Positions 1 through 1,228 of a stretch of DNA of 1,228 bases are shown in pieces. Position numbers and translations under genes: made by a program. The stretch lies in the NCBI GenBank assembly GCA_000004985.1, contig GG739492.1; one strand, 5' to 3'. The notes beneath the pieces were generated by a model. That model saw only the letters and a program-made list of their open reading frames with translations, had not been told where the DNA came from and searched no databases. Origin of the DNA: Naegleria gruberi. Lineage: Eukaryota. The number at the start of each line of letters is the position of its first letter. Within the stretch, counting starts at the first letter, position 1.

Positions 1-181
1 CGGTTGTAATTGTTTAAAATTACACTAACACATAGTATCATCCTTAATGAACTTCAACTCCTAGTCGTCTCATCCCACCTGTTATCACACCTTAAACAAA
101 TGTTTAATTAAAAGAGCTCCATTTGGAAGAGTGGGATTTCGTTGGTTGAGGAATTTCGTTATGGCAGTTTTCCAGCCCCAG

Positions 182-343
182 AAAAAAAAAGAACATTTTT
201 CTCTCTAATAAAGAGATAGCAGTTACCATTTTTTCCCGCGTCGTAAAAATTACAAGTTCAAAAAAAAATTCATCAAGGCTTGTATATTGTTCGCTTCCTC
301 TAAGGAGAGATAACCACCCACCACCATCATTATTTATTTTTTT
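182..343 (+). promoter_or_regulatory. Putative yeast-type promoter region. It contains two poly(dA) tracts (182-190 and 260-268), TATA-like TATATT (283-288), a CA-rich block CACCCACCACCATCAT (314-330) and a T-tract (337-343).
   Basis: It lies upstream of ATG 381. Stops are dense in all frames of 1-150. Homopolymeric dA:dT tracts are classic nucleosome-excluding elements of yeast promoters. The TATA-like element sits ~95 nt upstream of the ATG. No transcription start data are available, so this is positional inference only. Confidence 0.3.
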
Positions 344-380
344 GGATGATTTTATTGTTCTTGTTGGGAATATTTAAAGA

Positions 381-873
381 ATGATGAATGATAATGCTCC
401 ATTTAAGATTCAGCCCATGCTGGATAAAGTAACAACACTCATCATGATGCAATCTATTTTAACGCCTTCAATATCAGACTTGGAAAGTGATCCCTATCTA
501 CGAAAAGCACTTGTTCAATTACCTCAAGACAAGTGGTCCTTATCTAAACAAGATATTAATACTAGTAAATTAGCCTTGGAAAGTGTTGGAATTGTAGATT
601 GTTTTGAGGGTGTTATAAGATATAACAAGATGAGTAATAATGTAGTAATATCTCCAAAGAAATTTATGGATATTTTGAAGGTTACTGGAGAAGCTCTTCC
701 TTATAAAGTGTTATTAATTGATAATGATGTTAATAACATTAAAAGTGCTAAGGAAGTTGGCATTTTAACTTGCCATGTTGTTCAAGGCTCTAGTGGAGTC
801 CCTATTCAGAACACGGTAGATTTTCAAATAGACACCATATATCATGTACAGACCGAGCTTAGAGATTTAAAGA
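381..873 (+). CDS. Exon 1 of a HAD-superfamily hydrolase-like protein (SDT1 / pyrimidine 5'-nucleotidase-like fold). Motif I (DxDxT) is not recognisable, so it may be a pseudo-enzyme. The unspliced ORF as given in the track runs 381..920.
   Basis: This is the only long ORF in six frames. ATG 381 is the first ATG after an in-frame TAA at 375-377. The C-terminal segment YKVLLIDNDVNNIKSAKEVGILTCHVV (nt ~705-785) matches the general HAD motif IV pattern: a hydrophobic strand, D-x-D, then N-I-x-x-A-x-x-x-G-h-x-T. ISPKK (651-662) is a plausible motif III lysine, and W-S-L-S (~531-545) a plausible motif II Ser/Thr. From memory, DCFEGVIRY...ISPKK...LLIDND...GILTCHVV resembles the yeast SDT1/PHM8 C-terminal half, though I cannot verify residue-level identity here. 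Codon usage is yeast-like (AGA for Arg, CCA for Pro, TTA/TTG for Leu). After 873 the reading frame gives KFLLFIIILTISFE*, which looks like AT-rich non-coding read-through. Confidence 0.6.
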
Positions 874-949
874 GTAAGTTTTTATTATTTATAATTATAT
901 TAACAATATCATTTGAATAACCATCAATCATTTAACCATCAATAATTAG
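874..949 (+). other. Probable spliceosomal intron, phase 1, 76 nt with the first in-phase acceptor. Alternative acceptors would give 874..964 or 874..970.
   Basis: GTAAGT at 874-879 is a perfect 5' splice-site consensus. TATTAAC at 898-904 is one mismatch from the yeast TACTAAC branch consensus, and a second TTAAC lies at 932-936. The first YAG downstream is TAG at 947-949. AG dinucleotides ending at 949, 964 (CAG) and 970 (TAG) all restore the phase into the long open frame downstream. AGs ending at 951 and 959 do not. The interval is very AT-rich and contains the in-frame TAA (918-920) that ends the unspliced ORF. Confidence 0.45.
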
Positions 950-1228
950 AGTATAAAAGACCAGGTGTAGTGGAAGAAGAAGTAGCATCACCACTTGCAG
1001 TTAAGAATGATATTGTTAACACAAAATCAAAGTTAGCACCCAATAGTACAAACTTGGATAAAAGACCAACTATTGCACCTTCTATACTTCAAGAACCTAA
1101 AAAACAAACCCTTAAACCATCTCCAATCAATAGCAGGGCATCTCCAAAACCTGATAATGATCAAAATATGCCAATATCCCCTCAACCAAAAAAACCAGTA
1201 GAAAATATCAAATTGAATTCTATTGATG
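950..1228 (+). CDS. Probable exon 2 of the same gene, 3'-partial. It encodes a Pro/Ser/Lys-rich low-complexity C-terminal region that continues past the window end.
   Basis: The frame with codon starts 946, 949, ... is open from 946 to 1228 (93 codons, no stop). It has no in-frame ATG until 1168-1170. In roughly one-third-GC DNA, a stop-free run this long is unlikely by chance (order 1e-3 or less). Joining 873|950 gives ...TELRDLK-K-YKRPGVVEEEVASPLAVKNDIVNTKSKLAPNSTNLDKRPTIAPSILQEPKKQTLKPSPINSRASPKPDNDQNMPISPQPKKPVENIKLNSID... Pro codons are overwhelmingly CCA/CCT, consistent with exon 1 usage. Confidence 0.4.

What the first reader, a model, noticed from the sequence alone, without database searches (positions are those of the whole stretch)
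381..873. HAD-like (SDT1/5'-nucleotidase-type) protein that appears to lack catalytic motif I
The C-terminal two-thirds of the exon-1 protein has recognisable HAD motifs II, III and IV. Motif IV is LLIDNDVNNIKSAKEVGILTCHV, motif III is the ISPKK lysine, and motif II is WSLS. The N-terminus, MMNDNAPFKIQPMLDKVTTLIMMQSIL, has no hydrophobic-strand + DxDx(T/V) nucleophile motif. The sequence just upstream of the ATG is non-coding in this frame, with TAA at 375-377. By my recollection of SDT1-family proteins, the segment that normally reads FFFDIDNxLY would align to ...APFKIQPMLDK.... That would mean both catalytic aspartates are replaced. The cap-domain insert between motif I and the LRxxL...W-h-h-T/S region also seems drastically shortened (~12 aa, TPSISDLESDPY). 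This pattern fits one of three things: a non-catalytic HAD-fold pseudo-enzyme, a 5'-truncated gene relic, or a gene whose true first exon lies outside or is unrecognised in this window.
Basis: partly seen in the sequence, partly recalled or inferred. Interest (0 to 1): 0.5.

Follow-up and report, generated by a model that had tools for sequence, protein, structure and literature searches.

The report
Capless, aspartate-less HAD pseudo-phosphatase of Naegleria
The window holds a real, conserved Naegleria gene whose first 164 residues are a stripped-down relative of pyrimidine 5'-nucleotidases that keeps the fold but has lost the catalytic aspartates and the whole cap domain, so it is most likely a non-catalytic "pseudo-enzyme" joined to a long disordered tail.

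Summary
The window is a whole 1228-bp Naegleria gruberi scaffold. ORF 381-873 is exon 1, followed by a conserved phase-1 intron (874-949) and exon 2 (950-1228, open-ended).

Four orthologous loci were examined (N. lovaniensis, Willaertia magna, two metagenome contigs). All start at the same conserved ATG. Sequence similarity begins at that Met. Neighbouring genes end 131-360 nt upstream, so a missing upstream exon is very unlikely.

Synonymous sites are saturated while pN is 0.12-0.24, so this is not a decaying relic.

A confident AlphaFold model (pLDDT 88.5) puts TLIMM (19-23) as the central β1 strand, with M23/Q24 where the nucleophile Asp should be. A 10-residue loop replaces the ~75-aa cap. 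Motif II Ser is kept. The invariant second Asp of motif IV is Asn. The motif III Lys is displaced.

Best reading: a heterolobosean-specific HAD-fold pseudo-phosphatase with a conserved, motif-rich, lysine-rich tail. This is a new variant of a known kind, of modest interest.

The parts
381..873 (+). Exon 1. It encodes residues 1-164 plus the first base of codon 165, i.e. the complete capless HAD-like core domain.
375..377 (+). In-frame TAA one codon upstream of the start ATG.
   Evidence: Read directly. In-frame stops also lie just upstream of the ATG in Willaertia and L004.
435..461 (+). Residues 19-27, TLIMM-QSIL. This is the predicted central strand (β1 equivalent) plus a one-turn helix. M23/Q24 occupy the place of the nucleophile Asp, and no acidic residue is present.
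   Evidence: Model secondary structure E19-23, H24-27, pLDDT about 88. Hydrophobic in all six members, with T19 invariant. The sequence-only placement is not significant (E 0.23), so the register is inferred from the model, ±1 residue.
462..491 (+). Residues 28-37, TPSISDLESD. This short loop sits where canonical relatives carry the ~75-residue C1 cap domain.
   Evidence: Model has no helices between 27 and 38. Profile positions 1-80 of TIGR01993 are unmatched. Canonical template columns about 20-93 are unmatched. The loop length varies, with a 14-aa insertion in P0033.
528..545 (+). Residues 50-55, DKWSLS. This is strand 2, with S55 at the motif II Thr/Ser position.
   Evidence: hhalign aligns KWSLS with KWIFT. 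S/T is kept in 5 of 6 members and is Pro in P0007.
642..662 (+). Residues 88-94, VVISPKK, the motif III region. The canonical Lys column is V89 or S91. K93/K94 lie at the N-terminus of helix 92-102.
   Evidence: phmmer alignments to 7ef6/3onn. hhalign. Model helix 92-102. The segment is deleted in P0007.
708..728 (+). Residues 110-116, VLLIDND, strand 4 and a degenerate motif IV. D114 is invariant. N115 replaces the Asp that is invariant in canonical relatives.
874..949 (+). Phase-1 spliceosomal intron, GTAAGT...TAG, 76 nt, 17% G+C.
   Evidence: Same position and phase in N. lovaniensis and Willaertia magna. Absent in metagenome orthologue L003. Holds a 15-nt tandem repeat at 918-947.
950..1228 (+). 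Exon 2. This is the start of the long low-complexity tail and runs off the end of the scaffold. It carries conserved motifs (LAVKNDIVNTKSKL, STNLDKR, VENIKLNSID).
   Evidence: Open frame to the window end. Aligned to orthologues of 344-427 aa.
112..380 (+). Upstream non-coding region (probable promoter/5' UTR). Stops occur in all frames and there is no HAD N-terminal coding potential.
   Evidence: Short conserved blocks are shared with orthologous upstream regions.
232..239 (+). TTTCCCGC, a match to the E2F-type consensus TTTSSCGC, 149 nt before the ATG. A possible conserved promoter element.
   Evidence: Only match in the window, 0.01 expected. The only match in 21 kb of the N. lovaniensis locus lies at -173 of the orthologous ATG. 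A one-base variant occurs in L003.

Best explanation
The window is a small Naegleria gruberi scaffold carrying the 5' two-thirds of a conserved heterolobosean gene. Its product has two parts.

The first is a 164-residue N-terminal domain descended from the SDT1/XMPP-type pyrimidine 5'-nucleotidase branch of the HAD superfamily. This domain keeps the Rossmann-like core, including a central hydrophobic strand (TLIMM, residues 19-23). The whole ~75-residue cap has been deleted to a 10-residue loop. Both motif I aspartates are replaced (M23/Q24 and about I26). The invariant second Asp of motif IV is now Asn. The motif III Lys is displaced.

The second part is a ~250-residue low-complexity tail. 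It carries several conserved short motifs and a KKKKKRKKK run that looks like a nuclear localisation signal.

HAD phosphatases work through an aspartyl-phosphate intermediate on the first motif I Asp. Without that residue the domain cannot act as a HAD phosphatase.

What is shown: the homology, the fold, the absence of the motif, the true N-terminus, and purifying selection.

What is inferred:
- The domain now serves as a folded, non-catalytic binding or scaffold module. It may still bind a phosphate-bearing ligand or a protein through the remnants S55, K93/K94 and D114.
- This module presents or regulates the motif-rich, probably nuclear, tail.
For: Identity and organism:
- 100% match to 'predicted protein, partial [Naegleria gruberi]', on a 1228-bp contig.

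Homology restricted to the C-terminal core:
- TIGR01993 E 2.5e-13, profile positions 80-182 of 183, 50 bits against a cut-off of 142.9.
- The same pattern holds for all family members.
- hhalign 99.8%, query 31-160 against template 94-225.

Fold:
- AlphaFold pLDDT 88.5, pTM 0.85.
- Foldseek top hits are XMPP and SDT1.

No DxDx(T/V):
- The motif is absent from all six members.
- No acidic residue lies in or just after the strand in any of them.

True N-terminus:
- The same ATG is followed by conserved P(V/F)K(I/V)Q...KVTT(L/I)I in four loci.
- Upstream in-frame stops are present.
- The syntenic same-strand neighbour ends 131 nt (L003) and 229 nt (L002) upstream.
- tblastn with 36 canonical motif I + cap segments finds nothing upstream.

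Selection:
- pN 0.12-0.24 against pS 0.71-0.96 over the domain.
- pN 0.15-0.32 against pS 0.52-1.09 in the first 30 alignment columns.

Tail:
- Tail motifs are conserved out to distant members P0007 and P0033.
Against: - No expression, 5'-end or biochemical data were available.
- The placement of TLIMM as β1 rests on one AlphaFold model. Its alignment included canonical HADs, and MAFFT had aligned the N-terminus to the cap there.
- Sequence-only placements of residues 1-30 are all insignificant and mutually inconsistent.
- The model's coordinates could not be inspected, so the geometry of the former active site is unknown.
- D114, S55 and K93/K94 are conserved in the Naegleria/Willaertia group, so some ligand binding or residual chemistry cannot be excluded.
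- For the window alone, sequence 5' of the scaffold is unknown. Its first 111 nt could not be shown to be the syntenic neighbour.
- The proposed scaffold or binding role, and the nuclear targeting, are inference only.
Confidence: 0.78

Rival explanations
1. Gene-model artefact. The real gene has an upstream exon, beyond the 5' end of the scaffold or unrecognised, that supplies motif I and the cap. On this reading the protein is an ordinary pyrimidine 5'-nucleotidase.
For: - The scaffold has only 380 nt upstream of the ATG.
- An AG at 378-379, preceded by a T-rich tract, could in principle be a splice acceptor.
- The annotated models of the orthologues disagree about the start.
Against: - Four orthologous loci on longer contigs start at the same ATG, and similarity begins at the Met.
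- In-frame stops lie 1-3 codons upstream in N. gruberi, Willaertia and L004.
- In L003 the upstream same-strand gene, an orthologue of the N. lovaniensis neighbour at 54% identity over 521 aa, ends 131 nt before the ATG.
- No motif I or cap similarity is found within ±10 kb.
- The model already has a central strand from residues 19-23, so there is no structural vacancy for another β1.
Confidence: 0.04
2. 5'-truncated relic. The ORF is a decaying pseudogene fragment of a former nucleotidase, with no function.
For: - The catalytic motifs are lost.
- The gene sits on a tiny orphan scaffold.
- The protein is annotated only as 'predicted protein, partial'.
Against: - The intact ORF is conserved across Naegleria species, Willaertia and more distant metagenome members, at 29-79% identity.
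- Synonymous sites are saturated while non-synonymous differences stay at 12-24%.
- The intron position is conserved.
- The tail motifs are conserved.
Confidence: 0.02
3. Still an enzyme. The capless core retains hydrolytic or transferase activity using a non-canonical set of residues, for example D114, D116, K93/K94 and S55, or D15 in Naegleria. Alternatively it acts on a macromolecular substrate, as capless (C0) HADs do.
For: - D114 is invariant in all six members.
- S55, K93/K94 and D116 are conserved in the Naegleria/Willaertia group.
Against: - All known HAD phosphotransferases need the motif I nucleophile Asp.
- The candidate substitutes are not conserved family-wide. D15 is S or K in Willaertia, P0007 and P0033. 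S55 is P in P0007. The motif III segment is deleted in P0007. N115 is F or Q elsewhere.
Confidence: 0.08

Closest known systems
SDT1/SSM1 (yeast) and XMPP (Arabidopsis At2g32150) pyrimidine/xanthosine 5'-nucleotidases; NCBIfam TIGR01993, HAD subfamily IA
   Same: - Clear common ancestry over the core: LxPDPxLRxxL, KW-h-h-(T/S), LGIxDCFEG-h-I, hhhhD..N-h..A...G, then the T-strand.
- hhalign 99.8%.
   Different: - No motif I DxDxT.
- No C1 cap. About 75 residues, including the conserved YGTTLRGL element, are replaced by a 10-residue loop.
- The invariant second Asp of motif IV is Asn, and the motif III Lys column is not Lys.
- Scores 50 bits against the family cut-off of 142.9.
- Carries a ~250-aa disordered tail that canonical members lack.
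Tim50 (fungal/animal), the FCP1/NIF-type HAD-fold pseudophosphatase
   Same: - A HAD-fold domain without a cap.
[quoted passage not shown]
- Fungal Tim50 shows no phosphatase activity (PMC13216928).
   Different: - A different HAD branch (FCP1/NIF rather than subfamily IA), with no detectable specific sequence relationship.
- Tim50 is a mitochondrial inner-membrane import receptor with a transmembrane anchor.
- The Naegleria protein has no such anchor and has a lysine-rich tail instead.
Capless (C0) HAD phosphatases, e.g. KDO-8-P phosphatase YrbI (1j8d/1k1e) and Listeria 3ib6
   Same: - Size and architecture of the domain: a core only, with no cap.
   Different: - Those are active enzymes with all four motifs.
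- The Naegleria domain reached the capless state secondarily from a capped subfamily IA ancestor and lacks the nucleophile.

Membership tests
HAD superfamily (fold level) | Rossmann-like alpha/beta core with a central parallel sheet, and a squiggle-like turn after strand 1 | tested here: met
   - AlphaFold pLDDT 88.5 with alternating strands and helices, and a one-turn helix (24-27) after strand 19-23.
- Foldseek E 7e-9.
HAD superfamily (catalytic phosphotransferases) | Motif I: hhhhDxDx(T/V), with a nucleophile Asp and an Asp+2 general acid/base | tested here: not met
   No such pattern exists in the N-terminal region of any of six members. No acidic residue lies in or next to the strand. Canonical relatives all have D-x-D-x-T.
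HAD superfamily (catalytic phosphotransferases) | Motif II: Ser/Thr at the end of strand 2 | tested here: met
   S55 aligns with the canonical Thr. S/T is present in 5 of 6 members and is Pro in P0007.
HAD superfamily (catalytic phosphotransferases) | Motif III: Lys (or Arg) near the N-terminus of the helix before strand 4 | tested here: inconclusive
   The canonical K-P column aligns with S91 (phmmer) or V89 (hhalign). K93/K94 lie at the start of helix 92-102 and are conserved in 4 of 6 members. The segment is deleted in P0007.
HAD superfamily (catalytic phosphotransferases) | Motif IV: DD (or GDxxxD) at the end of strand 4 | tested here: not met
   The first Asp (D114) is invariant. The Asp that is invariant in 21 canonical relatives (D190 of P0006) aligns with N115, which is N, N, N, N, F, Q in the six members.
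TIGR01993 pyrimidine 5'-nucleotidase (SDT1/XMPP type) as a functional equivalog | Full-length match above the curated cut-off (142.9 bits) | tested here: not met
   Scores are 50.2 bits for the window protein and 27.6-57.1 bits for the relatives. Only profile positions about 73-182 of 183 are matched. The control P0006 scores 372 bits.
TIGR01993 pyrimidine 5'-nucleotidase (SDT1/XMPP type) as a functional equivalog | C1 cap domain inserted after motif I (substrate-specificity module with the conserved YGTT-LRGL element) | tested here: not met
   Only residues 28-37 lie between the strand/turn and the helix leading to strand 2. Canonical columns about 20-93 have no counterpart.
HAD-fold pseudophosphatases (functional class, e.g. 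Tim50) | HAD fold + loss of the catalytic Asp residues + evolutionary retention under purifying selection | tested here: met
   Fold. Motif loss. pN well below pS across four lineages. Class definition and the Tim50 example from PMC13216928.
HAD-fold pseudophosphatases (functional class, e.g. Tim50) | Demonstrated absence of phosphatase activity | not testable with these tools
   Requires an enzymatic assay of recombinant protein.

The most novel reading that the evidence does not exclude
The domain is a new type of HAD-derived 'reader' module. It is a secondarily capless subfamily IA core whose open former active site (S55, K93/K94, D114) binds a phosphorylated ligand or phosphoprotein without turning it over. 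This binding would couple to a nuclear, possibly cell-cycle-regulated tail, as suggested by the conserved E2F-like promoter site. The tail's conserved short motifs would recruit partners. This would be a heterolobosean-specific regulatory protein with no counterpart elsewhere.
Probability: 0.15. Interest if true: 0.5.

Novelty: new variant of a known kind. Interest (0 to 1): 0.3.

Why it matters
Pseudo-enzymes of the HAD fold are known, but few have been studied; Tim50 is the usual example. This family shows a capped small-molecule nucleotidase turned into a capless, aspartate-less domain that has been kept under selection across Naegleria, Willaertia and related uncultured amoebae.

Three practical consequences follow:
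- It corrects gene models. The annotated N. lovaniensis, N. fowleri and W. magna proteins start 23-95 codons too late, and the N. gruberi model starts 12 codons too late.
- It warns against annotating these proteins as 5'-nucleotidases.
- It offers a lineage-specific protein in a genus that includes the pathogen N. fowleri.

It does not bear on any long-standing open question.

Tried and rejected
- Pfam scan of the window protein gave no hit even at E ≤ 10. Orthologues gave only sub-threshold PF00702 hits.
- The first AlphaFold run, with a 5-sequence alignment, gave pLDDT 40 and was discarded.
- Three attempts to place residues 1-30 on the canonical family by sequence all failed. Local hhalign gave E 0.23 to the strand before DLDDT. 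MAFFT placed them on the cap YGTTLRGL element. Global hhalign placed them on the last cap helix. The placements are mutually inconsistent and none is significant.
- My early idea that MLDKVTT is a degenerate DxDxT was dropped. The model makes residues 11-16 helical, and D15 is not conserved (S, K, S in other members).
- A second word-indexed protein search, with the family profile, returned only 2 proteins.
- The afdb50 fold library was unavailable.
- Exact look-ups of the N. fowleri and N. gruberi models found no contig.
- I tested whether window 1-111 is the 3' end of the syntenic neighbour gene. The peptide similarity is no better than shuffles.
- The frame-3 peptide SLFIFLDDFIV at 318-350 resembles motif I only at chance level (E 1.8). 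It lies in T-rich non-coding DNA.
- Rfam, tRNA and repeat scans of the window found nothing relevant.
- A ciliate genetic code was considered and rejected. The coding frame has no in-frame TAA or TAG over 164 codons.

Full report
**What the window is.** The 1228 bases are AT-rich (32-35% G+C). They match 100% a 152-aa 'predicted protein, partial [Naegleria gruberi]' whose only contig is 1228 bp long. The window is therefore a whole small scaffold of the N. gruberi assembly.

**Gene structure.**
An in-frame TAA lies at 375-377.
- GTAAGT begins at 874 and an AG ends at 949.
- Joining 381-873 to 950-1228 gives an open 257-aa product that runs off the scaffold end.
- The 76-nt intron has 17% G+C.
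- It sits at the same codon and phase in N. lovaniensis and Willaertia magna.
- It is absent from a metagenome orthologue, L003, whose 408-aa ORF is continuous.
- The exon 2 translation aligns with the orthologues across the junction.

**Is it HAD-like?** Yes, but only over its C-terminal four-fifths.
- Pfam gives nothing.
- NCBIfam TIGR01993 (pyrimidine 5'-nucleotidase) matches residues 31-132 to profile positions 80-182 of 183. E is 2.5e-13, at 50 bits, far below the 142.9-bit family cut-off.
- PDB sequence search finds Arabidopsis XMP phosphatase 7ef6 (E 1.9e-5) and yeast SDT1/SSM1 (E 0.03) over the same part.
- An exhaustive profile search gave 74 hits at E ≤ 1e-3. Most are canonical 210-240-aa enzymes with D-x-D-x-T near their N-terminus, matched from about residue 80-100 onward.
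- Named hits are pyrimidine 5'-nucleotidases of plants, fungi, microsporidia and amoebozoa, plus a tandem enzyme from Cyanophora.
- A profile-profile comparison of six family members with 21 canonical relatives gives 99.8% probability, E 1.5e-28. Query 31-160 aligns with template 94-225.

**The family.**
- Orthologues occur in N. fowleri, N. lovaniensis, Willaertia magna and a metagenome contig, at 55-67% identity over the spliced protein.
- Two more distant metagenome proteins, P0007 and P0033, have the same short N-terminus and the same tail motifs.
- All score only 28-57 bits on TIGR01993, and only over the last ~100 profile positions.

**Is the N-terminus real?**
- Genomic loci were fetched for W. 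magna (L001), N. lovaniensis (L002) and two metagenome contigs (L003, L004).
- In the three closest loci and the window, an ATG is followed within 3-9 codons by the conserved P(V/F)K(I/V)Q.(M/I)L(D/S)K(V/I)(T/S)T(L/I)I. The more distant L004 orthologue (P0007) starts at the equivalent ATG and keeps only the VTT-plus-hydrophobic stretch (GIREQLKRVTTVLF).
- Upstream of the Met the in-frame translations are unrelated.
- Stops lie 1-3 codons upstream in N. gruberi, Willaertia and L004.
- In L003 the upstream same-strand gene is the orthologue of the N. lovaniensis neighbour (54% identity over 521 aa). It ends 131 nt before the ATG.
- The corresponding distances are 229 nt in N. lovaniensis, 360 nt in Willaertia (divergent neighbour) and 343 nt in L004.
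- tblastn with 36 canonical motif I + cap segments found nothing upstream of the gene in any locus.
- The annotated models of N. lovaniensis, N. fowleri and W. magna start 23-95 codons downstream of this conserved ATG and appear too short.

**Is it decaying?** No.
- Among the four lineages with DNA, synonymous differences are saturated (pS 0.71-0.96). Non-synonymous differences are 0.12-0.24.
- The first 30 alignment columns show the same pattern: pN 0.15-0.32 against pS 0.52-1.09.

**Structure.**
- With five sequences AlphaFold failed (pLDDT 40).
- With a 37-sequence alignment that included canonical relatives, it gave pLDDT 88.5 and pTM 0.85.
- The order of elements is: helix 11-16, strand 19-23 (TLIMM), one-turn helix 24-27 (QSIL), loop 28-37, helix 38-45, strand 50-55 (DKWSLS), helix 59-69, strand 77-80, helix 92-102, strand 110-114 (VLLID), helix 117-125, strand 129-133, strand 148-150, helix 153-159.
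- Foldseek ranks XMPP first and SDT1 among its top hits, at TM 0.64-0.68 normalised to the query.
- In HAD enzymes β1 is the central strand of the sheet and ends in the nucleophile Asp (established knowledge of the fold).
- I therefore infer that TLIMM is the β1 equivalent and that M23/Q24 sit where the nucleophile should be.
- This is an inference from one model. Sequence-only placements of residues 1-30 are insignificant and mutually inconsistent.
- The conclusion does not depend on the register. No member has DxDx(T/V), or any acidic residue in or right after the strand.

**State of the four motifs.**

| Motif | State in this family |
|---|---|
| I | Absent |
| II | S55 aligns with the canonical Thr. 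S/T in 5 of 6 members |
| III | The canonical Lys column is V89 or S91. K93/K94 lie at the start of helix 92-102, which could still count as 'near the helix N-terminus'. The segment is deleted in P0007 |
| IV | D114 is invariant. The Asp invariant in canonical enzymes is N115 (N, N, N, N, F, Q across the six) |
| Cap | The ~75-residue cap, with its YGTTLRGL element, is replaced by a 10-residue loop of variable length |

Its claim that motifs III and IV are intact is only partly right.

**Mechanism.**
- HAD phosphatases need the motif I Asp to form the aspartyl-phosphate intermediate.
- Without it, without the Asp+2, and with half of the Mg2+-binding motif IV gone, phosphatase activity is very unlikely.
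- The domain is nevertheless strongly conserved.
- It is always joined to a ~250-residue low-complexity tail with conserved short motifs: NDIVNTKSKL, STNLDKR, ENIKLNSID, KKKKKRKKK, KKRVKQLPPL, LLKDLNLDE, KKKLxP.
- I therefore read it as a HAD-fold pseudo-phosphatase, a folded binding or scaffold module attached to a probably nuclear tail.
- The non-catalytic status is well supported. The actual role is inference.

**Comparison with known systems.**
- By descent it belongs with the SDT1/XMPP pyrimidine 5'-nucleotidases. It fails that family's defining tests: score cut-off, motif I, cap.
- By architecture it resembles capless C0 HADs.
- By logic it resembles Tim50, a HAD-fold protein whose fungal form lacks DXDX(T/V) and has no phosphatase activity (PMC13216928). 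Tim50 belongs to a different HAD branch.
- Literature searches found no description of this Naegleria family. The database names are 'hypothetical' or 'predicted protein'.

**Side observation.**
- The upstream region carries TTTCCCGC at 232-239, a match to the E2F-type consensus TTTSSCGC (0.01 expected).
- The single match in 21 kb of the N. lovaniensis locus lies at -173 of the orthologous ATG.
- L003 has a one-base variant inside a 53-nt block alignable to window 228-280. The alignment score is 21, against 9.1 ± 1.3 for shuffles.
- E2F/DP/pRb proteins were reported across eukaryotes, including Excavata, in a survey that cites the N. gruberi genome (PMC4862756).
- This supports 112-380 being a promoter and hints at cell-cycle regulation. 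It was not tested further.

**Verdict.** The finding is a lineage-specific new variant of a known kind, of modest interest.

Noticed in passing
window 228-280 (core 232-239): TTTCCCGC matches the E2F-type consensus TTTSSCGC, 149 nt before the ATG. It is followed by a TTACAAGTTCAAAAAAAAA block. The only consensus match in the 21-kb N. lovaniensis locus lies at -173 of the orthologous ATG. L003 has a one-base variant in an alignable block, and Willaertia shares the A-run block. This is a possible conserved cell-cycle promoter element.
   Followed up: partly
window 1-111: ACTAAC at 24-29 and TAG at 33-35 look like a branch point and 3' splice site. An open frame follows, ending at TAA 109-111. 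This may be the last exon of an upstream same-strand gene, as in L002 and L003. However, the 24-aa peptide is no more similar to those neighbours' C-termini than shuffled controls.
   Followed up: partly
window 318-350: In the ORF's frame but upstream of the TAA stop, the translation SLFIFLDDFIV resembles canonical motif I LFFDLDDTLY. N. lovaniensis has TLFFYLSST about 30 codons upstream of its ATG. The tblastn E is 1.8 in T-rich non-coding DNA, so this is judged to be chance.
   Followed up: partly
window 918-947 (inside the intron): Tandem 15-nt repeat, TAACCATCAATCATT / TAACCATCAATAATT, directly before the 3' splice site. Each copy begins with a TAAC that could act as a branch point.
   Followed up: no
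L002 9710-10000; L001 9929-10000; proteins P0003, P0005, P0004, P0001: The public gene models start downstream of the conserved ATG: N. lovaniensis by 97 codons, N. fowleri by about 57, W. magna by 24 and N. gruberi by 12. The conserved, selected coding sequence extends to the upstream ATG.
   Followed up: yes
L003 1748-2974: The metagenome orthologue has no intron at the position where N. gruberi, N. lovaniensis and W. magna share a phase-1 intron. This is intron loss or gain within the group.
   Followed up: partly
proteins P0009, P0043 (canonical relatives): These are full-length pyrimidine 5'-nucleotidase domains fused to a C-terminal nucleoside-monophosphate-kinase-like domain (P-loop GPPGCGKGTQ / GGPGSGKGTQ). 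The pairing joins a nucleotidase and a kinase with opposing activities.
   Followed up: no
protein P0006 (Cyanophora paradoxa): A tandem duplication of two complete canonical HAD nucleotidase domains, followed by a Dpy-30 dimerisation motif.
   Followed up: no
tails of P0002-P0005, P0007, P0033 (window 950-1228 is the start): The disordered tail carries short motifs conserved even in the most distant members: IxNTxKL...NL(D/E)K, (I/V)KL(N/D)S(I/L), a poly-Lys run, KxLPPL and KLxP(I/L). A C-terminal DDPF is present in three Naegleria/Willaertia proteins. No Pfam family matches.
   Followed up: partly
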